Of a DNA stretch of 64,000 nucleotides, positions 5,128 to 54,014 are shown piece after piece. Source of the DNA: a virus; the IMG/VR virus record IMGVR_UViG_3300045988_156369, one strand, 5' to 3'. The notes under the pieces are model-generated. The model had not been told where the DNA came from and made no database searches. It worked only from the letters and a program-made list of their open reading frames with translations. Within the stretch, counting starts at the first letter, position 1, and each line of letters opens with the position of its first letter. The translations under genes were made by a program, and so were the position numbers.

Positions 5128-5694
5128 TTAGAATGAGTGGGTTTTGGATTCGGTTACGGTATGGATAATGGCGGGGCTGCAGGACCAGGCAAAGTGGGGC
5201 TGGCGGCCGGTGGAAGTGATGACAGAGGTGACAAGATCCATGGCAGCAAGGACGGCTTTTTGACGGATGATGTTGCGGTCGTGATCCTGAAAAAGATAGC
5301 GGCGGACGAAAACATTTTGAATCTCCGAATTGGCCACGGCGATATAGACAGTGCCGGCAGGCTGAGATTCTGCATGAGGACCTGCAATGCCGGTGACGCC
5401 AACGCCAAGCTCTGCGCCAGATTTTTGAGCTGCGCCGATTGCCATTTGGGCGGCGACAGGACCGGAATAAACAGTGTAATTCTTGATGGTGTCCGGTTTG
5501 ACAGAGACAAGGTTCATTTTGGCAGCGGCAGAGTAGGTGACAAAGCCATACTCCATAACGCTGGATGCGCCGGGGATACTGACGAGAGAGGAAGAGAAGA
5601 GGCCGGCGGTGCAGCTTTCGGCAGCAGAGATGTGAAGGGATTTGGATTTGAGCAGCTCAACAAGCTGTTGGGAGGACTGAGGGATAGAATTCAT
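5128..5694 (-). CDS. cinA: CinA-C/PncC-like nicotinamide-nucleotide amidohydrolase domain protein
   Basis: ISAAESCTAGLFSSSLVSIPGASSV..GFVTYS...GVGVTGIAGP...GTVYIAV matches the CinA C-terminal (PncC) signature. ATG at 5694 with AAAGGAG. Confidence 0.72.
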   Translation of the reverse strand: MNSIPQSSQQLVELLKSKSLHISAAESCTAGLFSSSLVSIPGASSVMEYGFVTYSAAAKMNLVSVKPDTIKNYTVYSGPVAAQMAIGAAQKSGAELGVGVTGIAGPHAESQPAGTVYIAVANSEIQNVFVRRYLFQDHDRNIIRQKAVLAAMDLVTSVITSTGRQPHFAWSCSPAIIHTVTESKTHSF

Positions 5695-17055: not shown

Positions 17056-17090
17056 AATGGTTGATCCTTTCTGATGGTAAAAATAGATTC

Positions 17091-17366
17091 AAAATAAAAC
17101 AGGGAACAAGCTGGTGGGAAACGGTCTTCTTGAGTGGATCGATGATTGGACTTGTGAAGAACGTATGAACGTAGTTTTGGTTTTGTGACAAGTCTTTTGA
17201 TGTCAACTCGAAACCGTATGGAGGCGCGTCGTCTGCAGACGACGCCCGTGATCCAGGAGGGGGAGGAGGTAACAAATTCGAACTCTTGGATATAACCGAA
17301 GAGTGAAAGCATGAACTGAAATATAATCAGCAAATGATTCTATACCTTGTTAGGCTGTTTTATTTT
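17091..17366 (-). ncRNA. Structured RNA element, copy A
   Basis: 12-bp perfect terminal inverted repeat (17091-17102, 17355-17366). Hairpin 17282-17304 is ACUCUU-C-GG-UUAUAU-CC-AAGAGU, then UCGAAUUUGUUACC, the C-rich run CCUCCUCCCCCUCC, and CUCCAU. Confidence 0.6.
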
Positions 17367-17432
17367 TAAGGTTGATAGTTGGGGCACGGCGGGGTGTGGT
17401 CGGCAAAATCGGCCATGGAAGCGCCGTGGTAT

Positions 17433-17792
17433 TTATGCTTGGGGATTTGCCAGTTGAGAGGTAGCTCCTTTCAATAAATCATCAAAGGAGAGAGTGGAGG
17501 CGCAGACAACTGTGGGACAAGATTGTTCAAACATGGGGAAAGTAAAAACCGCTGTGCTACCACCGAGATAATAAAAATCAAAACTCGGATGTAAAAAGGG
17601 GTCTATGCGAACAATAGGGAGTGTCTGTCCGCAATATTGTTTCATAGGCTCTGTGAACAAAGCTTGTGGGGTTTTAATGGCACCATATCTGTTCAAACCA
17701 AATTCGGACTCCATATCATCCCACTGGCGAATGGTAACTTTATCACCAATGTTGTAGGTAGGATAGTTATTGGGGTTAGGGGCAGTATTCAT
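17433..17792 (-). CDS. SFDDLL-tail small protein paralog 7
   Basis: GDKVTIRQWDDMESEFG; tail LSFDDLLKGATSQLANPQA. Confidence 0.78.
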   Translation of the reverse strand: MNTAPNPNNYPTYNIGDKVTIRQWDDMESEFGLNRYGAIKTPQALFTEPMKQYCGQTLPIVRIDPFLHPSFDFYYLGGSTAVFTFPMFEQSCPTVVCASTLSFDDLLKGATSQLANPQA

Positions 17793-17797
17793 AGTTA

Positions 17798-18187
17798 TTA
17801 GACTCCTTGAAGTAAATCATCGAAGGTAATAGAAGGGGTGGAAATACGGTTTTTGGGTTCAGGGGGGAGGGTTGCAGGGACGGGGAGGAGCATGGCGGAG
17901 GTGAAAAACCAACCGTGAGGAGAATCATCAACATTAAAGCCTGCATGAGTACACGATAAATAATCGAGAATATAAATGGGTTCATCAGGAAGATCTTTAT
18001 CATGAACGATTTTGACAACAATAAACTCTTTGCCACAGTAAGGTTTCATGTCAAGAATAAAAGAAAGTTTATTAGGATGAACAGTGATATCACCGTAAGG
18101 ATTGGAGCCGAATTCTTCCATCATATCATCCCACTGGCGGACGATGACGCGATCACCAACGTGGTAGGTGGGGTAGGGGGATGGCAT
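17798..18187 (-). CDS. SFDDLL-tail small protein paralog 8
   Basis: GDRVIVRQWDDMMEEFG; tail ITFDDLLQGV. Confidence 0.78.
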   Translation of the reverse strand: MPSPYPTYHVGDRVIVRQWDDMMEEFGSNPYGDITVHPNKLSFILDMKPYCGKEFIVVKIVHDKDLPDEPIYILDYLSCTHAGFNVDDSPHGWFFTSAMLLPVPATLPPEPKNRISTPSITFDDLLQGV

Positions 18188-19255: not shown

Positions 19256-19519
19256 TCACCTACCTTGAGAAATAAGTTCATCAAAAGAAATGGGAGAAGT
19301 GGGAAGAGGAGCGGGGGTGACGGCTTCGGGGGTATCGTCATAAGTAAGGGCAGAATGGGTGGCGACAAATGTTTTGTTATTCATACTGGGGACAATAACG
19401 GTGACATAAACGCCAGTATCAGATTGGACAAAGCCGTGGAGGGTACGATGGGCTGCGCCATGTAGCGTTATGATTTTGAAATAGACGGGAGTGCCGGGTT
19501 GAATGTAATAAGGGTCCAT
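19256..19519 (-). CDS. SFDDLL-tail small protein paralog 12
   Basis: ATG at 19519 after AGGTGA. Tail ISFDELISQGR. Confidence 0.7.
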   Translation of the reverse strand: MDPYYIQPGTPVYFKIITLHGAAHRTLHGFVQSDTGVYVTVIVPSMNNKTFVATHSALTYDDTPEAVTPAPLPTSPISFDELISQGR

Positions 19520-19537
19520 AAGAATCACCTGTATGAA

Positions 19538-19828
19538 TTAGAGGACGGAAATAATTTCATCAAAAGAAACGGTAGACGGGGGCACGGTGTTGGGGGACTT
19601 ATAGGCGAATGGATCGTTGGGGTCCTGGATTTCGGTGATATATTCATGGGGGACGTGGAAGGTGCGGGAATCATCGGTCCAGACGGTGACGCGGTTGCCG
19701 TTATCTTCTTGGACGGTGCCGGAGAGATAGATGATTTGAAATTTAGTTTTCAGGGGATTGTGATCCTGGCTGATAACTGGTCCTACGGTATAGAATTTGA
19801 CCCGTGAGCCGGGGGAGATAAGTTTCAT
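19538..19828 (-). CDS. SFDDLL-tail small protein paralog 13
   Basis: ATG at 19828 after AGGTAA. Tail VSFDEIISVL. Its C-terminal half is similar to the upstream frameshifted copy. Confidence 0.7.
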   Translation of the reverse strand: MKLISPGSRVKFYTVGPVISQDHNPLKTKFQIIYLSGTVQEDNGNRVTVWTDDSRTFHVPHEYITEIQDPNDPFAYKSPNTVPPSTVSFDEIISVL

Positions 19829-19833
19829 AAAAA

Positions 19834-20014
19834 TTACCTGCCTTGAAGGAGAGCGTCGAAAGAGATGGTTGGGGAAGATACGGGGGGTAGAGGACTTATA
19901 AGCGAGGGGATCTTTGGCATCCTGGATTTCGGTAATAACTTCATAGGGGACGTTGTAGCTGTGGGAATCGATCAAGATGGTGACGTAGTTGCCGTTATCT
20001 TGGATAAGTTTCAT
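19834..20014 (-). pseudogene. SFDDLL-tail paralog 14, frameshifted at a C6 run (sense strand)
   Basis: The N-terminal frame (MKLIQDNGNYVTILIDSHSYNVPYEVITEIQDAKDPLAYKSS) and the tail frame (PVSSPTISFDALLQGR*, stop 19834-19836) differ by one nt at the homopolymer 19882-19887. Confidence 0.6.
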
Positions 20015-20230
20015 AAAAATCACCTGAATTCATTTGAAGGGGAGGGTTCCGGGGTATTACAAGGCGCTCCAACCATTGGAATGGCCGGAGGCCCAGCGAA
20101 AGGAAAGTAAAACCATGACCGTGCGTTTACCAGGCGCACGAGCAGGGGGCGCAACGAGCTGCTAAGAAAGGAAGAAACAGCTGAAGCGCCTGGGAATGCC
20201 CCGGAACCATGGGGCGGAATGGAGAAAAAC

Positions 20231-20568
20231 AAAAATCAATTTGTGAAAGCTGATGAGAGGCAGCCACCGGACCCAGATGCTGGCCATGGCTGTTATTCTG
20301 AGTTTGATTGGTGCTTCCACCGGTGTTGCTTACTTTTTTTGTTGAAGAATAGGGCATTAGCCCATCCTTTCTGATGCGCCGCGAGGCTAGTTTCCGTGTG
20401 TATGGAAGTTCGAGACTGATGCGGTGCTTACTGCGACGCGATTGGATCACCTCCAGGGGGGTGGGACAGGGGAACAAATTCAAACCCTCGGATATGACCG
20501 GAGGGTGTTTGGCTTTGACTTGAACAGAAATCAAAACGAAACTTTACCTTTGAAACAAATTGATTTTT
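20231..20568 (-). ncRNA. Structured RNA element, copy B (starts 4 nt after the RT stop codon)
   Basis: 14-bp perfect terminal inverted repeat (20231-20244, 20555-20568). Hairpin 20481-20511 is CAAACACCCUC-C-GG-UCAUAU-CC-GAGGGUUUG, then AAUUUGUUCCCC, a C-rich run, and UUCCAU. Confidence 0.6.
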
Positions 20569-20572
20569 TGGA

Positions 20573-21763
20573 TTATGCGGTTACGCTGGGCGGGGCGAGA
20601 TCGGCCTTGATGCAGGATTCAAGGTCAAGGCCATATTTGGCGTTATACTTTTGGATGATATATTTGGTGGTATCGGGCTGGACATCCTTGAACCAGGTAA
20701 TGTTGCCCTGGAAGGACTGAAGGTCTTCATCCGGCCACTTTTTGCCCTTTTGTTTATCGCGGAAGTAGGTATCAATGGTGGCTTTGAAGATTTTATTTTT
20801 GCGGTAGCCGACTGTGATTTGGTTATCCTTATTGAGCATGACGCCAAGAATCCAGTTGCGGCCGGCGCGGGAGTGGAACTGGGTTTTCTTTTCATTGAGG
20901 GTGAAGGGGGCGTTCATTTGGGAGAGAAGCTGGACGATGAGGCGCTCGACGGCGTGATAATTGAAGATGACTTTGCAGGAGACGATGATATCATCGGCGT
21001 AGCGGGTGTAGCAGAGGCGGTCAGTGATGGGGGTTCCGTCCGGGTTATGCTTGCCGGATTCAAAATGGTTGACGGCCTTGGCGAAGGCGTGGTCAAAGGG
21101 GATCATCATGATGTTGGTGATGAGCGGGGAGATGGGGGTGCCCTGCGGCAATGCGCCGTTAAGGAAGCAGAGGTCTAGGGCTTTGAGCAACTCCGCGTGG
21201 CCGGTAGGGCTGGCGAGGATGAGGTTGAAAGGATAAATGAGTTCAAACTGGGAGAGAACAAACGCCGGCGTGGTGGAAGGGAAGAAGCCATGGAAATCAA
21301 AGTGGGCGTACCACCAGGCATTGAACTTTTGGTGACGTTTGGCGGCGGAGAGGACGCTGCGGTCCTCGACATAGGCGAAGGCGCAGGTGTGGTGGTCGGC
21401 AAACATCCAGGACTGGAAGAGAGTTTTGAGTTCCTTGAGGGCTTTCATTAAGTCGGAGTTGGGGGCATCGATCCAGCGGAGGCCGCCGGAAGCTTTGGGG
21501 ATGGAAAAATGGTTGTACAGGCTGGAACGGGGAGTGGTGAGGCGAAGGGATTCATACTGCTGATTGAACGCCTGGAGCTGGAAAATCATTTGTTCCACCT
21601 TGGTGATGCGCATGATGCGGGGAGGAACTTTATTGCAGATGACGGTACGGGTAGCACCGTGGCCGCCGGTGGAAAGGTTGGCGAGGTTGAAATCCCCGCG
21701 AAGGAGTTCTTCAAACGTCATTTCCCGGAAACGTTCCGGGCAGTTATAAGTGATGTAAACCAT
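20573..21763 (-). CDS. stand-alone reverse transcriptase (retron/Abi/UG-like)
   Basis: RT motifs IPKASGGLRWIDAP, HFDFHGFFPS, LPQGTPISPLITN, YTRYADDIIV, NEKKTQF, ILGVML. AAGGAG RBS. No RNase H, endonuclease or maturase extension visible. Confidence 0.88.
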   Translation of the reverse strand: MVYITYNCPERFREMTFEELLRGDFNLANLSTGGHGATRTVICNKVPPRIMRITKVEQMIFQLQAFNQQYESLRLTTPRSSLYNHFSIPKASGGLRWIDAPNSDLMKALKELKTLFQSWMFADHHTCAFAYVEDRSVLSAAKRHQKFNAWWYAHFDFHGFFPSTTPAFVLSQFELIYPFNLILASPTGHAELLKALDLCFLNGALPQGTPISPLITNIMMIPFDHAFAKAVNHFESGKHNPDGTPITDRLCYTRYADDIIVSCKVIFNYHAVERLIVQLLSQMNAPFTLNEKKTQFHSRAGRNWILGVMLNKDNQITVGYRKNKIFKATIDTYFRDKQKGKKWPDEDLQSFQGNITWFKDVQPDTTKYIIQKYNAKYGLDLESCIKADLAPPSVTA

Positions 21764-21789: not shown

Positions 21790-22124
21790 GTTTGTGTTCT
21801 GATGGAGATGTGGGCTGCCGCGAGTTTCCCGTTCGTCGGGCCGGGAGGCGTATCGTTGCTCTGGTTGATGCGACCGTAGCCTAATGTGGATTCGACCTTT
21901 GCGATACCTGCACCTTTGCTGGCCGAAATGTGTGGATTTTTCTTAGAGTTTTTCTACCAATCGGTGCTTGACACAAGGCTCGGATACTGCTATGGTGGGG
22001 TCTTGAGTCAGCCCCGGGCTGGCCAGGATCATGGAGGAGGGTGGGTCGGGGTAACAAATTCGTGCTCTTGGATATGACCGAAGAGCACGAAGCGAAAAAA
22101 AAGCTTACAGTATACAACACAAAC
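21790..22124 (-). ncRNA. Structured RNA element, copy C (ends 26 nt upstream of the RT start codon)
   Basis: 9-bp terminal inverted repeat (21790-21798, 22116-22124). Hairpin 22059-22091 is UUCGUGCUCUU-C-GG-UCAUAU-CC-AAGAGCACGAA, then UUUGUUACCCC, the C-rich run CCCACCCUCCUCCAU. Confidence 0.55.
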
Positions 22125-22154: not shown

Positions 22155-22838
22155 TTACAGACCGAGGAATGCGGATTCACCCTGGAGATTGAAGGGGGCA
22201 GAGAGGCCGGTGTGGATCAGCTCGCCTTTTTTGATGAAGTTTTGGAAGTTGGTGACGGTATAGCAGGCGGCAACGCGAACCGTGGGGGCAACACCGAGGG
22301 TAGTGCCGCAGGCCGAAACAGGGACCTGGGCGGTGGCTTCGGCGTGAGTAAAGTTCATTGTGGCGCGGAATTCCTTGACCTGTTTGGGGTCCGACCAATC
22401 GGCAGCGTAGAGCTGGGCGTCAAAGAGGGCGGTGCGGACATCAAACATGGCTTTAATGAAGGTGTTAAAGCGGTTGGCATCCACGATTTTCTGGCGGATC
22501 TCGATATTATCTACGGCGAGAAAAACGTAACCGGAGAGGGGCTGGCCGTTCCAGCCGGAGGGTTCCAGACGGATATCATTTTTGGCTTCCGGGTTGATGG
22601 CACAGAGGATATCGCGGAGGGCTTCCACTTTGGGCTGGCCGACCTGGGGATCAAAGAACATCTGGTTGACGATGTTTTTCTTTTCCACCGTATCAAAATC
22701 ATAAAGGGTGAAGTTGGTCAGGCCATAGCGGGCAAGAAGCTCCGCGATGGTGGAGCCGACCGAACCGCAGCCAATGATGTGGATGCGGCCTTTGACATCA
22801 TGCGGGGAGAAGACATCCAGGCTTTTGGCAAGATTCAT
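22155..22838 (-). CDS. ThiF/MoeB/E1-like adenylyltransferase (PRTRC ThiF-like)
   Basis: Rossmann loop HIIGCGSVGSTIAELLARYG followed by LYDFDTVEKKNIVNQ, as in ThiF/E1 enzymes. 4-nt overlap with the JAB gene. Confidence 0.78.
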   Translation of the reverse strand: MNLAKSLDVFSPHDVKGRIHIIGCGSVGSTIAELLARYGLTNFTLYDFDTVEKKNIVNQMFFDPQVGQPKVEALRDILCAINPEAKNDIRLEPSGWNGQPLSGYVFLAVDNIEIRQKIVDANRFNTFIKAMFDVRTALFDAQLYAADWSDPKQVKEFRATMNFTHAEATAQVPVSACGTTLGVAPTVRVAACYTVTNFQNFIKKGELIHTGLSAPFNLQGESAFLGL

Positions 22839-23599
22839 AAGGCACCTCCGTTGGTGAGATAATCGTAATAGGTGGGGTAGTGGTCGTAATAATTGCCGTC
22901 ATCGTCCGTCCAACAGCGGGCGGCGTTATCCCAGAAGACGTGGGGTGCGGTGCCACCGGTGGGCTTGACGGGAGGGTTCGTTTTGGAATAGATGGGCGGA
23001 GCCTTGGTGACAAGGGACTGAGCGGTGGCGGCAAAATCGGAGAGAGTATCGGTGTAGGTAACAGAGATATCGTCTTTATCGTAGATTTTGTTGGCGGCGT
23101 AGTCATACAGGCGGGCGGTGAACTCGCCACGCTTGTTCCAGATCATGAAGAGGTAGAAATCATTGCCCTTGAGCTTATTGACAATTTTGGACTCGTTTTC
23201 GTCATCAACGCCGGAAGGGGAAGTGGACATGTTGACGTGGCTGTGGGCCTGGTAGCGGATGTTGTTGAAGATTTCATCGGGCTGGGAGACCAGCCAGTCG
23301 TTGTATTTATCCTGGTCGGTTTCGACGGTGACACCAGTGACCTGCTGGGGGTAGACGAGGATATCATAGATTTCATACTCGGTGGGGGAGAGCTGGCGCA
23401 TGAGGCCGTGCCAGGCGACCTCGGAAGTGAAATCATCAATGAGGCGGGACTGTTTGGCCCAGGCATCGGCGGTAAAATTGATGTTGATTTTATCTTTTGC
23501 CTTAGTTTTTGTGAGCTTGACAGCGCCGGTGAGGAGCTGCTGACGATAGAGTTCGATGGCGGCATCCAGAGCGGTCTGATCAATACGGATAACTTGCAT
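22835..23599 (-). CDS. JAB/MPN (JAMM) metalloprotease-like protein
   Basis: Complete JAMM signature: upstream Glu (SEVAWHG) and HSHVNMSTSPSGVDD, which fits HxH-x7-S-xx-D. Confidence 0.78.
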   Translation of the reverse strand: MQVIRIDQTALDAAIELYRQQLLTGAVKLTKTKAKDKININFTADAWAKQSRLIDDFTSEVAWHGLMRQLSPTEYEIYDILVYPQQVTGVTVETDQDKYNDWLVSQPDEIFNNIRYQAHSHVNMSTSPSGVDDENESKIVNKLKGNDFYLFMIWNKRGEFTARLYDYAANKIYDKDDISVTYTDTLSDFAATAQSLVTKAPPIYSKTNPPVKPTGGTAPHVFWDNAARCWTDDDGNYYDHYPTYYDYLTNGGAL

Positions 23600-23601
23600 G
23601 G

Positions 23602-24942
23602 TTATTCTCCTTCCTTAACGGAATCGTTTGCGGATTTGAGCTGTTCAATGGCCTGCTTGGGGGTGATGGATTCACCGGCGGCGGTAAGGATGACGGGGAT
23701 ATCATTGTGATAGGCGTCGGCGAAATCATCAAAGAAATATTTGGTGGAGATTGTTTCGACGAGGTTCATGCTGCTGGCGCTCTGCTGACAGATAGCAATG
23801 GCGGCAATAAAATCTCGGCGATCCTCGGCATCCTCCAGCATGGGTTCATAGTTACCGAGGCAGGAGTGATGATTGATGTGAGGGTTGGGAACAGCCTGAA
23901 TGACGTTCATATTGATCGCATCGGACATAGCTGTGACATGGCAGTTGTAATTAAGCCTATAGGTGGCAGCGAGTTTGATTTTGAAGATGTGGTCAATGAA
24001 CACAGCCCGGAAAAGGATACGGACATCGTGTTCTTCTTCATCGGTAAGATCCTGATAGGGGCGGTCACTGTTGAAGATAAAGGTTTCGACATCATCCGGG
24101 TCATAGTTGGAGAGGAATGTGGTGATGACGAGGAGAAGCGATCCATCGACAGCACCAACGGAGATACCCTTTTGAGTGTGGAGATAATCCTTGAGTTCCG
24201 TGATAAAGGTGGATTCATCTTTGGAGTCAAGGCCGGTCAGCTCACAGTTGGTGTTGGTGATGTTGGTAAAAATTTCCGAGATACGGGCGCGGGTTTCTTT
24301 CAGATCACGGTAAAGACTTTCAATTGACCGCTTGAGATCCGCTTTACGGCGGTCAATGGTACCTTTGAAGAGGGATTCGATCGCTTTATCTACGGCCCTG
24401 GAGGTCAGATCGGTTTTGTTATAAAGGGCTTCCGCCATCCGGGCGAGGGCTTCCGAGCCAGTATCCGGGGTGGAGAGGGCGCGAAGGTAAGCGAGTTCAT
24501 CGGAGGTGAGGGGGTGGTCCTTGAAAAGCCAGGGCAGCAGGCGGGGCATGGCCGAGGCGACACGGTTGTAAAAAACACTGCTGTAGAGGCCGCCGTCGCG
24601 CTGGAACTGGACGATGGTGATACGGGCGGCTGCATCCTGATAAACTTTGTATTTATCAGAGAGATAAGCGCCGATATCCTTAACTTCCTGGATGGAATCG
24701 GGGATGGAGGCTTTATCGGTGACGAAGAACAAACGGGATTCATTCGGGTTAGTGGAAGGCTGGAGGCCGGAATCATCGCCAAGGATGGCAAGGGTATTGC
24801 CTGCGGTGAGGCGGGAGTAGACCGTGCAGGCCAGAACTTTGGTGAAAATTGTTTTGAAAGAGGAGCGGCAGGGGGTGTTGTCCTGCCATGTGATGGTGGG
24901 CGACATGTAATTGAGAATATCGGTGTAATTGGGGAGTGGCAT
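23602..24942 (-). CDS. hypothetical protein of the E1/JAB cassette (446 aa)
   Basis: Long ORF abutting the JAB gene. Near the C-terminus, NPHINHHSCLG faintly resembles the HPN..C active-site stretch of E2/UBC folds. That resemblance is a weak inference only. Confidence 0.65.
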   Translation of the reverse strand: MPLPNYTDILNYMSPTITWQDNTPCRSSFKTIFTKVLACTVYSRLTAGNTLAILGDDSGLQPSTNPNESRLFFVTDKASIPDSIQEVKDIGAYLSDKYKVYQDAAARITIVQFQRDGGLYSSVFYNRVASAMPRLLPWLFKDHPLTSDELAYLRALSTPDTGSEALARMAEALYNKTDLTSRAVDKAIESLFKGTIDRRKADLKRSIESLYRDLKETRARISEIFTNITNTNCELTGLDSKDESTFITELKDYLHTQKGISVGAVDGSLLLVITTFLSNYDPDDVETFIFNSDRPYQDLTDEEEHDVRILFRAVFIDHIFKIKLAATYRLNYNCHVTAMSDAINMNVIQAVPNPHINHHSCLGNYEPMLEDAEDRRDFIAAIAICQQSASSMNLVETISTKYFFDDFADAYHNDIPVILTAAGESITPKQAIEQLKSANDSVKEGE

Positions 24943-25077
24943 GGTGATTCATTTTTCCTTTCTGATTAGATTTGGAACGATTGGCCGCGTTTGCGTTGCC
25001 CGCTGCCTGCCGCGGGGAGGCTGTTCCTGTCAGGCAGCACCCCGGTGGGGGAAGAGACACCACCGGAGGGAAATCAA

Positions 25078-25305
25078 TCAGGCGTTATCCTGCTTGGCAA
25101 TGTTGACCAGGTAGCACTTTTCCGCGATACCGAAGTCTGCGAAGGTCTTATCCAGGTCGCCTGCGGCCAGAGAGGAGCCATCCAGCTTGGTCTGGCCGGT
25201 AGTGTAATCGACATCATGAGCTTCCAGGACGGAGCGCAGGGTGGTGTTGGGGTCAACGGGGTAGGTGTTGCGGTGCAGGTTATCGACGATAGTGACGTTA
25301 ATCAT
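25078..25305 (-). CDS. small protein (75 aa), candidate ubiquitin-like/beta-grasp component
   Basis: Its size, alternating beta-like pattern, and position in an E1/JAB operon are comparable to PRTRC protein C. It ends ...AKQDNA with no terminal GG. Confidence 0.5.
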   Translation of the reverse strand: MINVTIVDNLHRNTYPVDPNTTLRSVLEAHDVDYTTGQTKLDGSSLAAGDLDKTFADFGIAEKCYLVNIAKQDNA

Positions 25306-25356
25306 GGTAAAAAATCTCCTTATGATGAAATATTTTTATGTTGGATTGTGGATTGG

Positions 25357-25405
25357 GGAAGAAAAATCATGGCCGGGCTGCTTGTTGTGGGGGTGAGCAC
25401 CGGCC
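25357..25405 (-). terminator. Possible intrinsic terminator after 25413-25868
   Basis: Minus sense GGCCGGUGCU...AGCAGCCCGGCC stem followed by AUGAUUUUUCUU. Confidence 0.4.
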
Positions 25406-25412
25406 GTTTTGG

Positions 25413-25868
25413 TTACTGAGCGGCGGTTTCGTTTGCCGGGGTGGTCTGGGCGGCCGGGGTGGAAACTTCAATGCCGGCGATGATGGCATCGTGGTCGGCC
25501 TTGAGCTGAGCCAGAGTTGCAGCGGCCTGGGTTTCGATTTCATCCAGGTGCTTCTTTGCGAAGCCGATGCGCTCGGCGACATGCTCCTTGGCCTTGGTGA
25601 TGTCTTCGAGGTCGGCGGGCAGGTCCTCAACGTAGATGGCATTGTCGGTGCCGAAGGCGGACTTGGCGAAGCAGATGCCGTAGGTGGACATGCTCTGCTT
25701 GGCGGACGGGGCAATGGCAAAGATGATTTCATCGTCATCGCCGGACTTTTTGCCGGGCTTGGTCAGCTGCAGGGCCTGGGGAGCCTTGGTGTGAAGGGTT
25801 TTGAGCTGAGCCATAGTCAGGGCGGAGGTGATGGAGAAAGTGGTTTCGTTGATTTTGACAGTAGACAT
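25413..25868 (-). CDS. hypothetical protein (151 aa), first gene of the E1/JAB cassette
   Basis: ORF with RBS. Its position is equivalent to PRTRC protein E (positional only). Confidence 0.65.
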   Translation of the reverse strand: MSTVKINETTFSITSALTMAQLKTLHTKAPQALQLTKPGKKSGDDDEIIFAIAPSAKQSMSTYGICFAKSAFGTDNAIYVEDLPADLEDITKAKEHVAERIGFAKKHLDEIETQAAATLAQLKADHDAIIAGIEVSTPAAQTTPANETAAQ

Positions 25869-25936: not shown

Positions 25937-26062
25937 CTAGGTTGGGAAATTGGTGAGGGAAGCGAGTTCATGGCAGGCTTCGCGGTAAGTATCGGCGGAC
26001 TGGATGAAGGTGGGGCCGTCACGGATTTCGTAATGGCCGTGGGTGGGGATGATGATGTACAT
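25937..26062 (-). CDS. small hypothetical protein (41 aa, below the ORF-track cutoff)
   Basis: ATG at 26062 preceded by AAAAGGAG and by the conserved 16-nt motif. Translates as MYIIIPTHGHYEIRDGPTF... Confidence 0.4.
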   Translation of the reverse strand: MYIIIPTHGHYEIRDGPTFIQSADTYREACHELASLTNFPT

Positions 26063-26120: not shown

Positions 26121-26149
26121 CCAGACGGGGCAGGGCGGGGAACAAATTA
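26121..26149 (-). repeat. Partial (hairpin-less) copy of the RNA-element linear block
   Basis: Minus sense AAUUUGUUCCCCGCCCUGCCCCGUCUGG. Compare copy B, AAUUUGUUCCCCUGUCCCACCCCCCUGG. Confidence 0.4.
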
Positions 26150-26297
26150 TAATAAGGCTGGGATGCGCTGTGAGAAACGAGAAGAAAACGGGCGAGAAAC
26201 TGCATGGCCACAAGGAAACACGGCCTGTAGGGGCTGTGTGGGGCGCTGAGAGGGATGCGGTTTCATGCTGGCGGGTGACTTTGTGATTTTGATTATA

Positions 26298-26313
26298 TAC
26301 AAGTTTTCGCAAA
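26298..26313 (+). promoter_or_regulatory. Conserved motif copy 3, divergent from copy 2
   Basis: Identical 16-mer on the plus strand preceded by TTATATA. No ORF follows it. Confidence 0.45.
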
Positions 26314-26438
26314 TGTTCAAGCCGTAAAAATGTTGCTTGATGCGGTGAGAATGTTGCATGGCCGATGACAAAATATGTTTGTTTTTAAGCGGTACAAACC
26401 CGGTGAGGTGGTGGGTTAGTAAAAGCAATGTTCCAAAA

Positions 26439-45422: not shown

Positions 45423-45672
45423 GGCTTCGCCGTTGTAAAACCGCGTGAATGCCTTATCAGCAGTGTCGCCTAAAGGGCGGCTAACGGTGAAACTCTTTAC
45501 AATACAGCGTAAAGACAATACCGTGCCAAGCTTTGATTGCCAGTTACTGGTAATTACTGAAGGTGTAAAGACTAGGGGTGATGAGTGTAGCCCTGTAGGC
45601 CGGGAGATGATAGCCCGGACGCCAAGCGCGTGGCCATGGAAACATGGAAGAGATAGTCTGGCCTGTATGGTG
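45423..45672 (+). mobile_element. Group I intron 2 (about 250 nt; 3' end 45660-45672 uncertain)
   Basis: GGCGGCTAACGGTGAA block and P7 pairing GACTA/TAGTC (AGAGATAGTC). Candidate terminal G at 45660, 45669 or 45672; all three keep the reading frame. Confidence 0.6.
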
Positions 45673-45704
45673 ACATACGGGATAATTGAAAAAACGAAAG
45701 CCAT
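45673..45704 (+). CDS. RdRP/YonO-like RNA polymerase, micro-exon 3 (32 nt)
   Basis: Encodes TYGIIEKTKA plus 2 nt of an Ile codon. The 5' boundary is uncertain. The 3' end is U, paired in P1 (GCCAU/GUGGC). Confidence 0.5.
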
Positions 45705-51039: not shown

Positions 51040-52782
51040 ATGGTGAAGAAAACTGCAAGAGAGGTTACGGAAGATAAGACAAGCCGGATTATGAATGCCG
51101 TGGCGCTGTGGGCCAGCTTTTACCGGGCGAACCCGCAGAGGTTTTGCAAGGATTATTTGAACGTAAACCTGAAGATGTTCCAACAGATTTTGATTTATTG
51201 CATGGCGCTATGCACAAATTTTTGTTTTATAGCGGCGCGTGGTCTAGGCAAAACGTTCCTATGTGCAATTTTCTGTTGTTGGAAAGCGATCTTGTACCCA
51301 GGCAGCCTGATTGTGATTGCGAGCAAAACGCGAAACCAGGGCAGCCTGGTACTGAAAAAGATTGAGCAGGAGTTGGTGCCGCGAAGCCCATTACTGCGCA
51401 GTGAGATAAAAGATATAACGATAAACCAGAGTGTGGCGAAGATAACCTTCCGTAATGACAGTGTGATTGAGGTTGTGACCGCCGCAGACACTGCCCGTGG
51501 CGGCCGTGCGAGTTTGCTGATCATTGACGAGTACCGCATGGTTGACAAGGAAGTGCTGGATCTGGTTTTGAAGAAGTTTTTGAACTATATCCGCCACCCC
51601 GGCTACATGGACAACCCCAAGTACGCCCATTTGGCGGAACGCAACCAGCAGATGTACCTAAGCTCTGCATGGTTTGAACAGCACTGGTCATGGGATTTAT
51701 GCAAGGATTACTTTGTGAACATGTTTGACACCACGAAAAATTACTATTGTTTCCGATTCCCGTACCAGATGAGTATTAAGGAAAACCTGCTGCTGAAGAG
51801 CCAGGTAGAAGACGAGATGACAGAATCGACGTTTTCTGACATACGGTTCCGCATGGAGAACGAGGCGCTGTTTATTGGTACGACAGATGGCGGGCTATTT
51901 AGCTTTGATGACATTAACAAGCAGCGCAAGATCATAAAAGCGTTCTATGCGCCAAACATGATTTTGAACAATAAGGCGGCTTGCCAGTTGCCGGCCAAGA
52001 AGACCGGTGAGAAGCGGATTTTGACGGTTGATATTGCCCTGATGAGTTCTAAGCGCCGCGACAATGACGCCACCAGCATCTTTTTGAACAGTTTGGTGCC
52101 GGACAGTACAGGCAAGTGTACCAGCAACATGGTGTACACCGAAAACTGCGAGGGTATTATTACGCAGGATTTGGTGCTGAAGCTACGCCGCTACTTTAAG
52201 TATTTTGAGTGTGACTACATTGGCATTGACGCAAAGGGTCTTGGTGCTCCTATTATGGATCTGCTGATGCACGAGTGCTATGACCCGGAGACGGGCGAGA
52301 CATACCCGCCGCTGAACTGCTGCAATAACCCGGATTTCCAGGAGCGGTGCCCCGACAAGACGGCACCCAAGGTGATTTGGGCGATCATGGGCAGTAGCCA
52401 GTTTAATAATGACGTGACAATTGCGTTGCGAAGCGGAATCCAACAGGGGAGAATCCGGTTTTTGGAATCCGAATATGACTGCGAAGAGATTTTGCGGGCG
52501 AACATTAAAGGTTATGACAAGCTTTCACCCATGGAGAAGATGGCGCTGCAGATGCCGTACATCAATACCGGATTGGCTGTAAATGAGCTGGTGAACCTGG
52601 AATATGAAGCAACGAATAATTTGATCCGTGTGCATGAGAAGCCCGGCGCACGCAAGGACCGTTACAGCAGCCTGAGCTATAACTATTACATTGCGCTGCA
52701 GGTTGAACGCATGATGAGTAAAAACTTTATGCGCAATAAGAAGATTGAAATAAACTTTAGAGCGCCCAGACTGCGGCATTAA
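51040..52782 (+). CDS. terL: terminase large subunit
   Basis: Walker A-like AARGLGKT, Walker B LLIIDEY. 580 aa with a C-terminal nuclease-sized domain. Position is before portal. Confidence 0.85.
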   Translation: MVKKTAREVTEDKTSRIMNAVALWASFYRANPQRFCKDYLNVNLKMFQQILIYCMALCTNFCFIAARGLGKTFLCAIFCCWKAILYPGSLIVIASKTRNQGSLVLKKIEQELVPRSPLLRSEIKDITINQSVAKITFRNDSVIEVVTAADTARGGRASLLIIDEYRMVDKEVLDLVLKKFLNYIRHPGYMDNPKYAHLAERNQQMYLSSAWFEQHWSWDLCKDYFVNMFDTTKNYYCFRFPYQMSIKENLLLKSQVEDEMTESTFSDIRFRMENEALFIGTTDGGLFSFDDINKQRKIIKAFYAPNMILNNKAACQLPAKKTGEKRILTVDIALMSSKRRDNDATSIFLNSLVPDSTGKCTSNMVYTENCEGIITQDLVLKLRRYFKYFECDYIGIDAKGLGAPIMDLLMHECYDPETGETYPPLNCCNNPDFQERCPDKTAPKVIWAIMGSSQFNNDVTIALRSGIQQGRIRFLESEYDCEEILRANIKGYDKLSPMEKMALQMPYINTGLAVNELVNLEYEATNNLIRVHEKPGARKDRYSSLSYNYYIALQVERMMSKNFMRNKKIEINFRAPRLRH

Positions 52783-52838: not shown

Positions 52839-54014
52839 ATGCTCATGGAGGATAAGAGGAAATTGCTAAAAAGCTTCAAGACAGAAATAAATCCGACGGT
52901 CGAGCAAAAAATTAAGATTCGTAAAACGATAGGAACTTGCAGATTTATTTATAACTTCTATTTAGCTCATAACAAAAAGCTTCACGAAGATGGGGAAAAA
53001 TTTATGAGCAGCAGTAAATTTAGAATCTGGCTCAATAACGAATATCTTCCACAGCATCCGGAGCATTTGTGGATCAAGGAGGCATATTCAAAGGCTGTAA
53101 CACAGTCAGTAAATAACGGACAGACCGCATTTACAAGATTTTTTAATCACGAAAGTGCTTTCCCTAATTTCAAAAAGAAAGGCAAATCTGATGTAAAAAT
53201 GTATTTCGTAAAGAATAATCCTAAAGATTGTTATTGCGAAAGACATCGGATTAAAATTCCATCGCTTGGCTGGGTTCGTATCAAGGAAAAAGGATATATA
53301 CCAACTACCAAAGATGGGTATGAGATTAAAAGCGGTTCGGTTTCAATAAAGGCTGACAGGTATTATGTTTCAGTTCTTGTGGAAGTCTCTGATAACAAAA
53401 CAACCAATCACTTCAATGAAGGGATTGGCATAGACCTTGGACTAAAAGATTTTGCCATTGTATCAAACGGCAAAACATATCAAAACATCAACAAAACAGA
53501 AAAACTTAAAAAACTTGAGAGACAGCTTATTCGAGAACAAAGGTGTCTTTCTCGTAAATACGAAAAATTAAAGAAAGGAGAGTCCACTCAAAAGAATATA
53601 CAAAAACAAAAACTCAAAGTACAAAAACTTCACCATAGGATAGATAATATCCGTACCGATTATATCAACAAGACAATCGCAGAGATGGTAAAAACCAAGC
53701 CATCTTACATAACGATTGAAGACTTAAATGTAAAAGGTATGATGAAGAACAGGCATCTCGCAAAAGCCGTTGCATCACAAAAGTTCTATGAATTTAGAAC
53801 CAAGCTCAAAGCTAAGTGCAATGAAAATGGTATTGAATTAAGAGTTGTAGACAGATGGTATCCATCATCCAAAATGTGTCACTGTTGCGGCACTATCAAG
53901 AAAGATTTGAAGCTTTCGGATAGAATATACCGTTGCGATTGTGGCTATGTCGAGGATAGGGACTTTAATGCTGCTCTTAATCTAAGAGATGCTTTAACTT
54001 ACGAAGTTGCATAA
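52839..54014 (+). CDS. tnpB: TnpB (IS605 OrfB-family RNA-guided nuclease)
   Basis: RuvC triad contexts GIDLGLKD, ITIEDLN and DRDFNAALN. Zinc finger CHCCG...CDCG. N-terminal OrfB-like helix-rich region. Confidence 0.88.
   Translation: MLMEDKRKLLKSFKTEINPTVEQKIKIRKTIGTCRFIYNFYLAHNKKLHEDGEKFMSSSKFRIWLNNEYLPQHPEHLWIKEAYSKAVTQSVNNGQTAFTRFFNHESAFPNFKKKGKSDVKMYFVKNNPKDCYCERHRIKIPSLGWVRIKEKGYIPTTKDGYEIKSGSVSIKADRYYVSVLVEVSDNKTTNHFNEGIGIDLGLKDFAIVSNGKTYQNINKTEKLKKLERQLIREQRCLSRKYEKLKKGESTQKNIQKQKLKVQKLHHRIDNIRTDYINKTIAEMVKTKPSYITIEDLNVKGMMKNRHLAKAVASQKFYEFRTKLKAKCNENGIELRVVDRWYPSSKMCHCCGTIKKDLKLSDRIYRCDCGYVEDRDFNAALNLRDALTYEVA

What the first reader, a model, noticed from the sequence alone, without database searches (positions are those of the whole stretch)
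22155..25868. Ubiquitin-like conjugation cassette (E1/ThiF-like, JAB/JAMM, small beta-grasp-sized protein, two unknowns) in a phage, resembling PRTRC systems
**Components.** Five co-directional, abutting or overlapping genes, listed in order of transcription:
1. A 151-aa unknown.
2. A 75-aa protein of ubiquitin-like size.
3. A 446-aa unknown. Its C-terminal NPHINHHSCLG vaguely recalls the HPN..C active site of E2 enzymes.
4. A JAMM protease with a complete E...HSH-x7-S-xx-D signature.
5. A ThiF/E1-like enzyme with the GCGSVG Rossmann loop.

**Comparison.** This order (E-like, C-like, large, A/JAB-like, ThiF) is how I remember the ParB-related/ThiF-related cassette (PRTRC) of plasmids, but no ParB is visible here. 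The function of PRTRC is unknown.

Bacterial E1/E2/JAB systems (Bil, CBASS Cap2/Cap3) act in phage defence. A virus-encoded version, placed directly next to an RT, is therefore notable.
Basis: partly seen in the sequence, partly recalled or inferred. Interest (0 to 1): 0.8.

Follow-up and report, generated by a model that had tools for sequence, protein, structure and literature searches.

The report
Phage retron coupled to ubiquitin-like tagging genes
A large gut phage carries a conserved block of genes in which a ubiquitin-like protein, its activating enzyme and a de-tagging protease travel with a retron (a reverse transcriptase plus its template RNAs), a pairing I found in none of the papers I could search.

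Summary
The five ORFs exist as described. Three assignments hold:
- The 227-aa protein is an E1-type ThiF adenylation domain.
- The 254-aa protein has an invariant JAMM motif.
- The 75-aa protein is confidently predicted as a beta-grasp whose nearest folds are ubiquitin-like proteins.

Two assignments fail. No PRTRC model matches, apart from a far sub-threshold hit on ThiF. The 446-aa protein shows no E2 similarity by HMM, hhalign or Foldseek. It belongs to a very large unannotated family with an invariant N-P-H-x5-C-x-G site.

The main result is that the neighbouring RT belongs to the module. It is a retron-clade RT. It is flanked by two to three paralogous ~300-nt RNA units, each closed by a lineage-specific a1/a2 duplex. 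An RT lies downstream of ThiF in 42 of 42 further viral loci and in nearly all other lineages. All 14 flanking genes are replaced outside the closest relatives.

An HDV-like ribozyme lies between the Ubl gene and the 446-aa gene. In a sister lineage a tRNA-Leu occupies that gap.

Best reading (confidence 0.45): a retron-coupled, E2-less ubiquitin-like tagging system carried by phages of gut Clostridia. Its target and role are unknown.

The parts
26292..26320 (-). Promoter-like site (TTGAAC-17-TATAAT), candidate start of the transcription unit. A second site lies at 26146-26174.
   Evidence: Consensus scan only. No comparably good site lies on the - strand inside the cassette. Weak evidence.
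25937..26062 (-). 41-aa ORF upstream of the cassette. It is conserved only in the window's own lineage (L042, L040).
   Evidence: Membership in the module is doubtful.
25413..25868 (-). 151-aa protein of unknown function. It has an N-terminal alpha/beta part and a C-terminal coiled-coil-like helix. It is always present with the Ubl gene.
   Evidence: Homologues at 23-31% identity in the lineages aligned. No Pfam, NCBIfam or PDB match for the profile or its 16 members.
25078..25305 (-). 75-aa ubiquitin-like beta-grasp protein with a conserved flexible tail K-x-D-N-A, which ends in Ala rather than Gly-Gly.
   Evidence: AF2 pLDDT 92.3 with topology b-b-a-b-b-b. Foldseek PDB top hits are Ubls, TM 0.6-0.7. 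The tail ends in K-[AQT]-D-N-A followed by 0-4 variable residues across the family. 57 of 111 members weakly hit PF10790 DUF2604.
25040..25068 (-). 9-bp G+C-rich hairpin ending 1 nt before the predicted ribozyme cleavage site. It would form the 3' end of the upstream mRNA fragment.
   Evidence: Read directly from the sequence printed. The function is inferred.
24973..25038 (-). HDV-like self-cleaving ribozyme in the gap between the Ubl gene and the 446-aa gene. Predicted cleavage is 5' of G25038.
   Evidence: RF02682 38.7 bits (gathering score 44) and RF00094 26.9 bits. It is the only ribozyme hit in the 64-kb window. P1, P3, P4, the catalytic-C context, and a 5-bp P2 pseudoknot (GGAAC/GUUCC) that the covariance model does not score are all present. 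L042 carries two compensatory pair changes, one in P1 and one in P4.
23602..24942 (-). 446-aa protein of a large unannotated family. N353, H355, C361 and G363 (motif N-P-H-x5-C-x-G) and W138 are invariant. It has a long central coiled coil and is the fastest-evolving member of the module. Candidate transferase or target selector.
   Evidence: 2420 clusters at 50% identity with E<=1e-3. Invariant columns. AF2 pLDDT 87, pTM 0.47. No PDB fold match and only one uncharacterised viral protein in BFVD. No E2 or PRTRC signal.
22835..23599 (-). 254-aa JAB/JAMM (MPN+) metalloprotease with a Tyr/Asp-rich variable C-terminal tail.
   Evidence: E60, H119-S-H121, S129 and D132 are invariant. The profile matches Rpn11 in register, E=0.03. 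PADLOC JAB E=6e-4. Prok-JAB is hit weakly by 6 of 7 members.
22155..22838 (-). 227-aa minimal ThiF/E1-type adenylation domain with an invariant Cys177.
   Evidence: PF00899 E=1.7e-22. PDB hits are Uba1, UBA5, MoeB, TcdA, MccB and Cap2. hhalign to Cap2 gives probability 98.4%. Invariant residues: GCGxxG, D47, D49, K70, D110 and V-S-A-C177.
21790..22124 (-). Retron-type ncRNA unit 1. a1 is 22116-22124 (GTTTGTGTT), followed by G22115. An internal hairpin lies at 22059-22091, followed by GAATTTGTTACC. a2 is 21790-21798. The unit ends 27 nt before the RT start codon and begins about 30 nt after the ThiF stop codon.
   Evidence: The closing duplex is present in 12 lineages with a different sequence in each. 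With the anchor fixed at the conserved G, 102 pairs are observed against 57.5 +/- 4.6 in shuffles.
20573..21763 (-). 396-aa retron-clade reverse transcriptase with a YADD motif and a family-specific N-terminal extension of about 70 aa.
   Evidence: NF038233 retron St85 RT 1.9e-49 (168.5 bits, cut-off 235). PADLOC RT_II-A 1.5e-44. Nearly all PDB hits, and all the top ones, are named retron RTs.
20231..20568 (-). Paralogous ncRNA unit 2. It starts 5 nt after the RT stop codon and has a 14-bp perfect closing duplex and the same internal hairpin and motif.
   Evidence: A unit downstream of the RT is also found in L040, L043, L047, L050, L051, L053, L054 and L060.
17088..17369 (-). Paralogous ncRNA unit 3, with a 12-15-bp closing duplex and the same hairpin and motif. 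It lies 3.2 kb downstream of unit 2.
   Evidence: Also present in L042 and L047.

Best explanation
The five-gene cassette is the protein-tagging half of a larger conserved module in phages of gut Clostridia. Its order is: 151-aa protein, Ubl, RNA cleavage element, 446-aa Cys protein, JAB, ThiF, retron ncRNA, retron RT, then one or two further ncRNA units.

**Most likely mechanism**
1. The ThiF homodimer adenylates the flexible C-terminal tail of the Ubl, which ends ...K-x-D-N-Ala. It possibly then holds the Ubl on Cys177.
2. JAB removes the 1-4 extra C-terminal residues that many family members carry, and it reverses conjugates.
3. The fast-evolving 446-aa protein takes the place of E2/E3, using its invariant Asn-Pro-His...Cys site. 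It passes the Ubl to a target and chooses that target.
4. The retron RT and its reverse-transcribed DNA act as the sensing or regulating partner, as in other retrons.
5. The ribozyme, or a tRNA in a sister lineage, cuts the operon mRNA so that the Ubl and 151-aa messages are separated from the enzyme messages.

**Shown:** folds and catalytic motifs of ThiF, JAB and Ubl; the retron architecture; co-inheritance of all the parts.

**Inferred:** adenylation of the Ubl, any thioester, the role of the 446-aa and 151-aa proteins, the target, and whether the module serves exclusion of rival phages or host takeover.
For: **Component identities**
- ThiF.
- JAB motif, invariant and in register with Rpn11.
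- Ubl fold.
- The conserved C-terminal tail followed by a variable extension is the pattern of a processed, activated C-terminus.
- An E1 can activate a C-terminal Ala: E. cloacae CdnD, which ends ...GRFA, is adenylated by Cap2 (paper 10.1101/2022.03.31.486616).

**Retron**
- Retron-clade RT.
- a1/a2 duplexes with compensatory changes, and a G directly after a1.

**Linkage**
- All six genes are present in every lineage mapped, while 14 flanking genes are replaced outside the closest relatives.
- An RT is present in 42 of 42 further viral loci.
- In L060 the RT sits between JAB and ThiF.
- Only about 30 nt separate the ThiF stop codon from a1.
- Pairwise divergence of the RT tracks that of ThiF, JAB and the 446-aa protein (rho 0.85-0.91).
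- In L046 the RT and the ncRNA motif are both absent.

**Candidate active site of the 446-aa protein:** N353, H355, C361 and G363 are invariant across 78 members drawn from the best-scoring clusters at 50% identity.
Against: - No E2 fold or E2 homology was detected, so a conjugation step is assumed, not seen.
- The Ubl ends in Ala, not Gly-Gly.
- ThiF has Asn where MoeB has Arg73. It also lacks the N-terminal Arg-finger segment (compared with MoeB from my own knowledge). Its chemistry may therefore differ.
- E1 + JAB + Ubl without an E2 is also the make-up of sulfur-carrier cassettes (Iyer et al. 2006, PMC1779556).
- One lineage (L046/L059) keeps the cassette without a retron, so the cassette can stand alone.
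- Co-inheritance does not prove functional coupling.
- No experiment exists.
Confidence: 0.45

Rival explanations
1. Sulfur-carrier or other non-conjugating acyl-adenylate chemistry. ThiF adenylates the small beta-grasp protein, which is then thiocarboxylated as in ThiS/MoaD, CysO/Mec+, QbsE/QbsD or TtuB/TtuC. JAB trims or releases it. The 446-aa Cys protein is the sulfur acceptor or transferase. The product would be a thio-modified metabolite, tRNA or the retron DNA.
For: - E1 + JAB + Ubl without an E2 is the composition of known sulfur-carrier cassettes (PMC1779556).
- The best single HMM hit of the ThiF protein is the ThiS adenylyltransferase model.
- The invariant Cys177 lies next to the G-V-A-P segment, where E. 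coli ThiF has Cys184 (with my own knowledge of ThiF).
- tRNA genes sit inside the cassette in a sister lineage.
Against: - All characterised sulfur carriers end in Gly-Gly. This family ends in D-N-A.
- No rhodanese, cysteine desulfurase, PP-loop ATPase or known acceptor enzyme is found among the module's proteins.
- The Ubl's nearest structural neighbours are conjugating Ubls.
- The closest E1 relatives by profile include Cap2.
Confidence: 0.15
2. Two independent systems that merely share an accessory-gene hotspot: an ordinary phage-borne retron, whose effector is unknown or acts in trans, next to a separate Ubl cassette.
For: - L046/L059 has the cassette without an RT.
- The distance between ThiF and the RT varies from 0.3 to about 6 kb.
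- Defence and counter-defence genes are known to cluster.
- Stand-alone ncRNA-RT cassettes exist (PMC7736814).
Against: - An RT is present in 42 of 42 and in about 19 of 20 loci, across lineages whose other neighbours are all different.
- The RT is intercalated between JAB and ThiF in L060.
- Only about 30 nt separate ThiF from a1.
- No strong promoter-like site lies between them.
- No other candidate retron effector is conserved next to the RT.
Confidence: 0.12
3. A cryptic but orthodox E1-E2-JAB pathway like Bil or type II CBASS, in which the C-terminal part of the 446-aa protein is a highly diverged UBC-fold E2.
For: - The distance from the invariant Asn353 to Cys361 is 8 residues, the same as Asn77 to Cys85 in UbcH5 (with my own knowledge of the E2 HPN motif).
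- The order of secondary-structure elements around the site is helix, strands, loop with Cys, then helices.
- The gene complement otherwise equals that of Bil: Ubl, E2, JAB, E1 (PMC11601596).
Against: - hhalign gives probability 0.2% against three E2s.
- 78 members give only scattered weak hits, with no E2 model among the 25 families listed.
- Foldseek against the PDB, which holds bacterial and eukaryotic E2s, finds nothing better than E=0.9.
- The model shows two strands before the site, not a four-strand meander.
Confidence: 0.1
4. A member of the PRTRC (ParB-related, ThiF-related cassette) family.
For:
- A weak PRTRC_ThiF hit.
Against: - PRTRC_ThiF scores 23 bits against a cut-off of 144.75, far below the generic ThiF and MoeB models.
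- No PRTRC A, B, C or E model appears among the hits of the window proteins (E<=0.1) or in the top-25 family lists of 78, 111 and 16 family members.
- No ParB among the nine neighbouring proteins scanned.
Confidence: 0.03

Closest known systems
Retrons (tripartite ncRNA + RT + effector systems; RT nearest to the St85/Sen2 and Ec78/Eco7 families)
   Same: - Retron-clade RT with a YADD motif.
- A structured ncRNA directly upstream of the RT, closed by a1/a2 inverted repeats, with a G immediately 3' of a1.
- Accessory genes are co-inherited with the RT.
- Carried on a phage or prophage, as several classical retrons are.
   Different: - The accessory module is five genes (Ubl, E1-like, JAB and two unknowns). 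The 13-type retron classification paper (PMC7736814) and a 2026 retron survey contain no mention of ThiF, ubiquitin or JAB.
- There are two to three paralogous ncRNA units per RT, on both sides of the gene.
- The RT has an extra N-terminal ~70 aa and scores below the curated retron cut-offs.
- No Rfam family matches the ncRNA region at E<=1.
Bil (bacterial ISG15-like) operons: BilA Ubl, BilB E2, BilC JAB, BilD E1
   Same: - A free-standing Ubl gene, a JAB peptidase and an E1-type adenylation enzyme in one operon.
- A bacterial Ubl chain (8tyx, 8tyz) is among the Ubl's best fold matches.
   Different: - No recognisable E2.
- The E1 is a single 227-aa adenylation domain, without an inactive adenylation domain or a separate Cys domain.
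- The Ubl ends in Ala.
- Encoded by phages and tied to a retron.
Type II CBASS Cap2/Cap3 (E1-E2 fusion plus JAB) and the 6A-MBL system
   Same: - The ThiF domain is homologous to the Cap2 E1 domain (hhalign probability 98.4%; PADLOC E1-E2 1.3e-17).
- Cap2 shows that a C-terminal Ala can be adenylated.
- A JAB partner is present.
- In CBASS the trio is an ancillary regulator of an immune sensor, which is a possible analogy for the retron.
   Different: - No fused E2.
- No CD-NTase and no cyclic-nucleotide effector.
- A true beta-grasp Ubl is present, rather than the tail of the enzyme.
Sulfur-carrier cassettes with JAB (CysO/Mec+, QbsE/QbsD, TtuB/TtuC)
   Same: The gene complement is Ubl + ThiF-type E1 + JAMM without an E2. 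In both cases JAMM is expected to trim the C-terminus.
   Different: - No Gly-Gly terminus.
- No sulfurtransferase or acceptor enzyme.
- Phage and retron context.
HDV-like self-cleaving ribozymes (Rfam RF02682 HDV-F-prausnitzii, RF00094)
   Same: All helices of the nested double pseudoknot and the catalytic-C context are present. The host clade (gut Clostridia) is the same as that of the F. prausnitzii ribozyme.
   Different: - The score is 5 bits below the gathering score.
- It sits inside a phage operon between two genes of one module.
- A tRNA-Leu(UAA) occupies this position in a sister lineage.

Membership tests
PRTRC (ParB-related, ThiF-related cassette) | ThiF protein reaches the TIGR03736 PRTRC_ThiF cut-off | tested here: not met
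   23 bits against a cut-off of 144.75, E=4.2e-5. Generic ThiF and MoeB models score far higher.
PRTRC (ParB-related, ThiF-related cassette) | Proteins matching PRTRC A, B, C, E (TIGR03735/37/38/41) | tested here: not met
   No PRTRC A, B, C or E model appears among the hits at E<=0.1 for the window proteins, or in the top-25 family lists of 78 large-protein, 111 Ubl and 16 p151 members.
PRTRC (ParB-related, ThiF-related cassette) | ParB homologue in the cassette | tested here: not met
   None among the nine proteins scanned between 20573 and 28069. The rest of the window was not scanned for ParB.
Retron | RT of the retron clade | tested here: met
   The best NCBIfam and PADLOC hits are retron RTs (1.9e-49 and 1.5e-44). 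Nearly all PDB hits, and all the top ones, are named retron RTs. Caveat: 168.5 bits is below the 235-bit cut-off of the St85 model, so this is a new subfamily.
Retron | ncRNA next to the RT, closed by a1/a2 inverted repeats, with a priming G at the 3' end of a1 | tested here: met
   A 5-10-bp contiguous duplex (7-10 bp in 11 of 12) starting at the conserved G in 12 lineages, with a different sequence in each. a2 lies 23-51 nt before the RT start. 102 pairs observed against 57.5 +/- 4.6 in shuffles.
Retron | Production of branched msDNA | not testable with these tools
   Needs RNA/DNA extraction from expressing cells.
Retron | Specifically associated effector gene(s) | tested here: met
   The five cassette genes accompany the RT in nearly all loci while the flanks are replaced. 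The effector role itself is inferred.
Prokaryotic Ubl-conjugation operons (Bil / Bub / type II CBASS kind) | E1-type adenylation domain with ATP-binding residues | tested here: met
   PF00899 1.7e-22. GCGxxG, D47/D49, K70 and D110 are invariant. Asn replaces the MoeB Arg73 position.
Prokaryotic Ubl-conjugation operons (Bil / Bub / type II CBASS kind) | Beta-grasp Ubl | tested here: met
   pLDDT 92.3. Foldseek top hits are Ubls.
Prokaryotic Ubl-conjugation operons (Bil / Bub / type II CBASS kind) | C-terminal Gly (or Gly-Gly) on the mature Ubl | tested here: not met
   The conserved end is K-x-D-N-A, plus or minus a short extension. A terminal Ala has a precedent in CBASS CdnD.
Prokaryotic Ubl-conjugation operons (Bil / Bub / type II CBASS kind) | E2 (UBC-fold) protein or domain | tested here: not met
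   No E2 model appears among the hits of the window proteins or in the top-25 family list of the 78 members. hhalign gives probability 0.2% and Foldseek finds nothing.
Prokaryotic Ubl-conjugation operons (Bil / Bub / type II CBASS kind) | E1 catalytic Cys (or Tyr) that forms the Ubl~E1 intermediate | tested here: inconclusive
   Cys177 is invariant, but it aligns to Asp in two Cap2 sequences. Its role is inferred.
JAMM/MPN+ metalloproteases | E ... H-x-H-x7-S-x2-D zinc site | tested here: met
   E60, H119, H121, S129 and D132 are invariant and in register with Rpn11. Pfam Prok-JAB stays below its cut-off (best 0.006).
ThiS/MoaD-type sulfur-carrier systems | Gly-Gly C-terminus and an associated sulfurtransferase or acceptor enzyme | tested here: not met
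   Tail D-N-A. No such enzyme among the module's proteins.
HDV-like ribozymes | P1, P1.1, P2, P3, P4 nested double pseudoknot with the catalytic C in J4/2 | tested here: met
   All elements can be drawn on 24973-25038. P2 is not scored by the covariance model yet is present. There are two compensatory changes in L042. The Rfam score of 38.7 is below the gathering score of 44.
HDV-like ribozymes | Self-cleavage | not testable with these tools
   Needs in-vitro transcription.

The most novel reading that the evidence does not exclude
This is a new retron type whose effector arm is a ubiquitin-like tagging pathway, encoded by viruses rather than by their hosts. Reverse-transcribed DNA from two to three template RNAs would control an E2-less Ubl ligation, or be its substrate or guide. 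That ligation would be carried out by a previously unseen Cys enzyme family. This would be the first link between retron DNA sensing and protein (or nucleic-acid) tagging, and the first phage-encoded Ubl conjugation system.
Probability: 0.3. Interest if true: 0.95.

Novelty: new variant of a known kind. Interest (0 to 1): 0.8.

Why it matters
- **A new partnership.** Retrons and bacterial ubiquitin-like pathways are two active fronts of phage-bacteria immunity research. The papers I could search treat them separately. Here they form one conserved module, and it sits on the phage side.
- **It is common.** The 446-aa family alone has 2420 clusters at 50% identity. IMG/VR holds 314 relatives of the ThiF gene. 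No cultured phage in INPHARED carries the module.
- **A clean test case for E2-less tagging.** The module could show how a minimal E1 plus a Ubl works without an E2. It also offers a new catalytic Cys protein family with no fold match in the PDB.
- **Unusual retron anatomy.** There are several template RNAs for one RT.
- **A compact RNA device.** A ribozyme or a tRNA splits one operon into two messages.

Tried and rejected
- **PRTRC membership: rejected.** No PRTRC model matched any window protein or any of 78, 111 and 16 family members. I could not obtain real PRTRC sequences for a profile-profile test. Most literature hits for 'PRTRC' were the plasmid name pRtrCIAT899. The plasmid hits of the ThiF protein were CBASS Cap2 or MoeB.
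- **E2 identity of the 446-aa protein: rejected as untestable beyond three negative tests**. Weak hits to Mak pore-forming toxin subunits, TAL effectors and designed coiled coils are coiled-coil noise.
- **151-aa protein: nothing found** in PDB, Pfam or NCBIfam.
- **DGR or group II intron instead of a retron: rejected.** The nearest HMM and PDB hits are retrons. The direct-repeat scan found no template/variable repeat pair. The repeats it did find turned out to be the paralogous ncRNA units.
- **'Synteny is only shared phage backbone': rejected** by the flank control.
- **Ribozyme or tRNA in the gap as a universal feature of the module: rejected.** Many lineages have neither. Related phages scatter twister ribozymes elsewhere.
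- **Near-identical DNA in INPHARED phages:** none.
- **Literature:** searches for retron with ThiF, ubiquitin-like, JAB or JAMM, and for DUF2604, found nothing relevant.

Full report
**1. The observation**

The window is a phage. It has a large terminase (51040-52782), a portal (54197-55747), an exonuclease and four tRNAs. Genes run on the - strand up to about 33 kb and on the + strand after that. The portal is about 40% identical to that of Brevibacillus phage Sundance and of large Bacillus siphophages. Close relatives are 85-150-kb IMG/VR contigs and MAG contigs binned mostly to gut Clostridia: Lachnospiraceae, Oscillospiraceae, Acutalibacteraceae, Ruminococcus and Roseburia.

Only the last three genes abut or overlap. 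The first two junctions are gaps of 107 and 135 nt.

**2. What the five proteins are**

*227-aa protein (ThiF).*
- It is an E1-type adenylation domain: PF00899 E=1.7e-22.
- Its PDB relatives by sequence are Uba1, UBA5, MoeB, TcdA, MccB and Cap2.
- A 14-lineage profile matches the E1 domain of two CBASS Cap2 proteins with hhalign probability 98.4%.
- GCGxxG, D47/D49, K70, D110 and a Cys in V-S-A-C177 are invariant.
- The position of MoeB Arg73 is Asn, and there are no CxxC zinc pairs.

*254-aa protein (JAB).*
- It scores below every curated JAB cut-off.
- E60, H119-S-H121, S129 and D132 are invariant across lineages that are only 37-47% identical.
- The family profile aligns with Rpn11 with all catalytic residues in register (E=0.03).
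- I accept it as a JAMM protease.

*75-aa protein (Ubl).*
- It is predicted with pLDDT 92.3 as beta-beta-alpha-beta-beta-beta.
- Its best PDB fold matches are all ubiquitin-like: Caldiarchaeum ubiquitin, a bacterial Ubl from an E1-E2-Ubl complex, SUMO and ubiquitin.
- Its last five residues are flexible.
- The family ends in K-[AQT]-D-N-A, followed in roughly a third of members by one to four variable residues.
- That is the look of a processed, activated C-terminus, but with Ala where ubiquitin has Gly.

*446-aa protein.*
- It belongs to a very large family with no Pfam domain: 2420 clusters at 50% identity with E<=1e-3, and the 150 listed are nearly all full length, mostly 460-540 aa.
- N353, H355, C361 and G363 are invariant in 78 members drawn from the best-scoring clusters at 50% identity.
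- It shows no E2 signal. hhalign against three E2s gives 0.2%. No E2 or PRTRC model appears among the 25 most-hit families of the 78 members.
- The confident AF2 model (pLDDT 87) has no PDB neighbour better than E=0.9. In BFVD it matches only one uncharacterised viral protein.

*151-aa protein.* It matches nothing.

**3. The module is larger than the finding**

I mapped all components in relatives found through the 446-aa protein, the Ubl, the JAB and the ThiF.
- All five families co-occur, and in this order in the first lineages mapped. In the larger IMG/VR sample a sublineage has the first two genes swapped, and the short Ubl gene often escaped detection.
- Some lineages have an extra acidic ~180-aa gene before ThiF.
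It is present in 42 of 42 further IMG/VR loci with enough downstream sequence.
- In L060 the RT lies between JAB and ThiF.
- The one contig without an RT (L046 = L059) also lacks the ncRNA motif.

As a control, I took the seven genes on each side of the block in the window. They have homologues only in the two closest relatives, plus one Bro-N gene in L040. None has a homologue in L043-L064, while all six block genes are found in those lineages. Shared phage backbone therefore does not explain the linkage.

Pairwise divergence of the RT tracks that of ThiF, JAB, the 446-aa and the 151-aa proteins (rho 0.85-0.91). Mean pairwise identity over 12 lineages is:

| Protein | Mean identity |
|---|---|
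| ThiF | 62% |
| Ubl | 56% |
| RT | 55% |
| JAB | 50% |
| 151-aa | 43% |
| 446-aa | 36% |

In the near relative L031 the 446-aa protein is 77% identical while its neighbours are 94-100%. It is the fast-evolving part.

**4. The RT is a retron**

- Its best matches are retron RTs: NF038233 1.9e-49, PADLOC RT_II-A 1.5e-44, and PDB hits led by named retron RTs (Ec78/Eco7, Ec83, Ec67, Ec86). It has YADD.
- The 391-nt gap between ThiF and the RT holds a retron-type ncRNA.
- In every lineage a duplex (7-10 contiguous pairs from the conserved G in 11 of 12 lineages, 8-13 in the free search) joins a segment 270-360 nt upstream of the RT start (a1) to a segment 23-51 nt upstream (a2). Where a1 ends is fixed by a conserved G and a conserved hairpin.
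- The duplex sequences differ between lineages, so pairing is kept by changes on both sides.
- With the anchor fixed at the G, 12 lineages give 102 contiguous pairs against 57.5 +/- 4.6 in shuffles, with a maximum of 74 in 2000 shuffles.
- In the window a1 is 22116-22124, the G is 22115, the hairpin is 22059-22091 and a2 is 21790-21798. Only about 30 nt separate the ThiF stop codon from a1.

**5. Several ncRNA units per RT**

A direct-repeat scan showed the hairpin plus the GAATTTGTTACC motif three times in the window, all on the - strand. Each copy is enclosed by its own long-range duplex:

| Unit | Coordinates | Closing duplex | Note |
|---|---|---|---|
| 1 | 21790-22124 | 9 bp | directly upstream of the RT |
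| 2 | 20231-20568 | 14 bp, perfect | starts 5 nt after the RT stop codon |
| 3 | 17088-17369 | 12-15 bp | 3.2 kb downstream of unit 2 |

Other lineages show the same plan: one unit before the RT and one or two after it. Closing stems are 8-17 bp and all have different sequences. The motif occurs nowhere else in the 16-kb loci and never on the other strand, with one opposite-strand exception in L057. Only unit 1 regularly has a G directly after a1, so the roles of units 2 and 3 are open.

**6. An RNA cleavage element inside the cassette**

- The 135-nt gap between the Ubl gene and the 446-aa gene matches two HDV ribozyme models: RF02682 at 38.7 bits (gathering score 44) and RF00094 at 26.9 bits. 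It is the only ribozyme hit in the window.
- P1, P3, P4, the catalytic-C context and a 5-bp P2 pseudoknot that the model cannot score are all present.
- L042 has the element at the same place, with compensatory changes in P1 and P4.
- A 9-bp hairpin ends one base before the cleavage site.
- In a sister lineage this gap holds a tRNA-Leu(UAA) instead, in 9 loci of the first set and 10 of the second. Other lineages have neither.
- Both elements would cut the operon RNA at the same point. I infer that this separates the Ubl and 151-aa message from the enzyme message.
- This is not a universal property of the module. Related phages also scatter twister ribozymes elsewhere.

**7. How it most likely works**

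*Shown:* an E1-type adenylation enzyme, a JAMM protease and a ubiquitin-like protein with a conserved, extendable C-terminal tail. They are translationally coupled to a Cys-bearing protein and inherited with a retron.

*Inferred:*
- ThiF adenylates the ...DNA tail. A C-terminal Ala is activated by Cap2 in CBASS.
- JAB trims extensions and reverses conjugates.
- The 446-aa protein takes the E2/E3 place and selects the target, which would fit its rapid divergence.
- The RT with its msDNA is the sensing or regulating half, as in other retrons.

I cannot decide whether the module excludes rival phages, aborts infection in lysogens or remodels the host. I put this reading at 0.45.

*Rivals:*
- A sulfur-carrier or other non-conjugating chemistry (0.15). 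The gene complement fits. The D-N-A tail and the lack of any sulfurtransferase argue against it.
- Two unrelated neighbours (0.12).
- A cryptic orthodox E2 (0.10).
- PRTRC (0.03).

**8. Comparison with what is known**

- The retron classification of Mestre et al. (PMC7736814) and a 2026 metagenome survey of retrons contain no mention of ThiF, ubiquitin or JAB.
- The papers on bacterial Ubl operons that I read describe the 6a-6e groups, Bil, Bub and type II CBASS, and none reports a retron partner or a phage-borne version.
- Full-text searches combining the terms found nothing.
- The only INPHARED record with the JAB gene is an unannotated faecal metagenome contig.
- Within the library I could search, the module is therefore undescribed.
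- I file it as a new variant of known kinds. It is a retron by RT and ncRNA, and a Ubl system by E1, JAB and Ubl. It fails the E2 and Gly-terminus features of the known conjugation operons and all the PRTRC features tested.

**9. Limits**

- Everything about activity is inference.
- JAB and the ribozyme rest on motifs and sub-threshold scores.
- The a1/a2 statistics use simple shuffles.
- Many loci are close relatives of one another.
- The 446-aa model could not be searched domain by domain.
- No library of predicted cellular structures was available.

Noticed in passing
window 24973-25038 (-): HDV-like self-cleaving ribozyme between the Ubl gene and the 446-aa gene. It is preceded by a 9-bp hairpin at 25040-25068 and is the only ribozyme hit in the 64-kb window.
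   Followed up: yes
L043 8309-8393; also L048-L055, L108, L117, L119, L120, L124, L130, L132, L135, L143, L145: A tRNA-Leu(UAA) gene sits in the same Ubl-to-large-gene gap in a sister lineage. L050 and L051 carry extra tRNAs there. It is a possible functional stand-in for the ribozyme.
   Followed up: partly
window 20231-20568 (-) and 17088-17369 (-): Two further paralogous ~280-340-nt RNA units have the same hairpin and motif as the retron ncRNA, each closed by its own 12-15-bp duplex. One starts 5 nt after the RT stop codon. Other lineages have them too.
   Followed up: partly
window 54062-54136 (+), next to 52839-54014 (+): RAGATH-18 RNA (72.5 bits, above the gathering score) lies directly after a transposase gene (phrog_506). 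That gene sits between the large terminase and the portal genes.
   Followed up: no
window 45424-45680 (+): Group I intron-like match (RF00028, 39.3 bits, below the gathering score of 50).
   Followed up: no
window ~10000-32000: Very strong strand composition bias. GC skew is +0.25 to +0.31 on the + strand, so the coding (-) strand is C-rich. The skew falls to near 0 around 33-37 kb, where gene orientation flips.
   Followed up: no
window 17681-18176 and 19256-20023 (-): The small genes downstream of the RT form paralogous pairs. Direct repeats of 35-87 nt are 71-86% identical, and the 161-aa ORF is an internal duplication related to the 90-aa ORF. They are conserved only in close relatives.
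   Followed up: no
L057 551-4313; L060 209-497; L043 2195-2265 and 5846-6027: Related phages carry several twister-P1 ribozymes and RAGATH-16, RAGATH-36 and RAGATH-4 RNAs in the early region upstream of the module. L062 has a weak HDV-like hit at 5533-5636, just before its 151-aa homologue.
   Followed up: no
L043 10907-11455 (also L044, L045, L048-L052, L054, L055): An extra ~180-aa, very acidic, Cys-rich protein is encoded between JAB and ThiF in one lineage. It is absent from the window. In L043-L045 and L054 the RT is followed by an RNase H gene.
   Followed up: no
L105, L112, L115, L121, L123, L126, L127, L140, L142, L144: In one sublineage the order of the Ubl gene and the 151-aa gene is swapped.
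   Followed up: no
window 25937-26062 (-): A 41-aa ORF upstream of the cassette is conserved in L042 and, more distantly, in L040. It is not found in the other lineages.
   Followed up: partly
window 23602-24942 vs L031: In L031 the 446-aa protein is only 77% identical while the genes on both sides are 94-100% identical. This suggests local recombination or diversifying selection on this gene.
   Followed up: no
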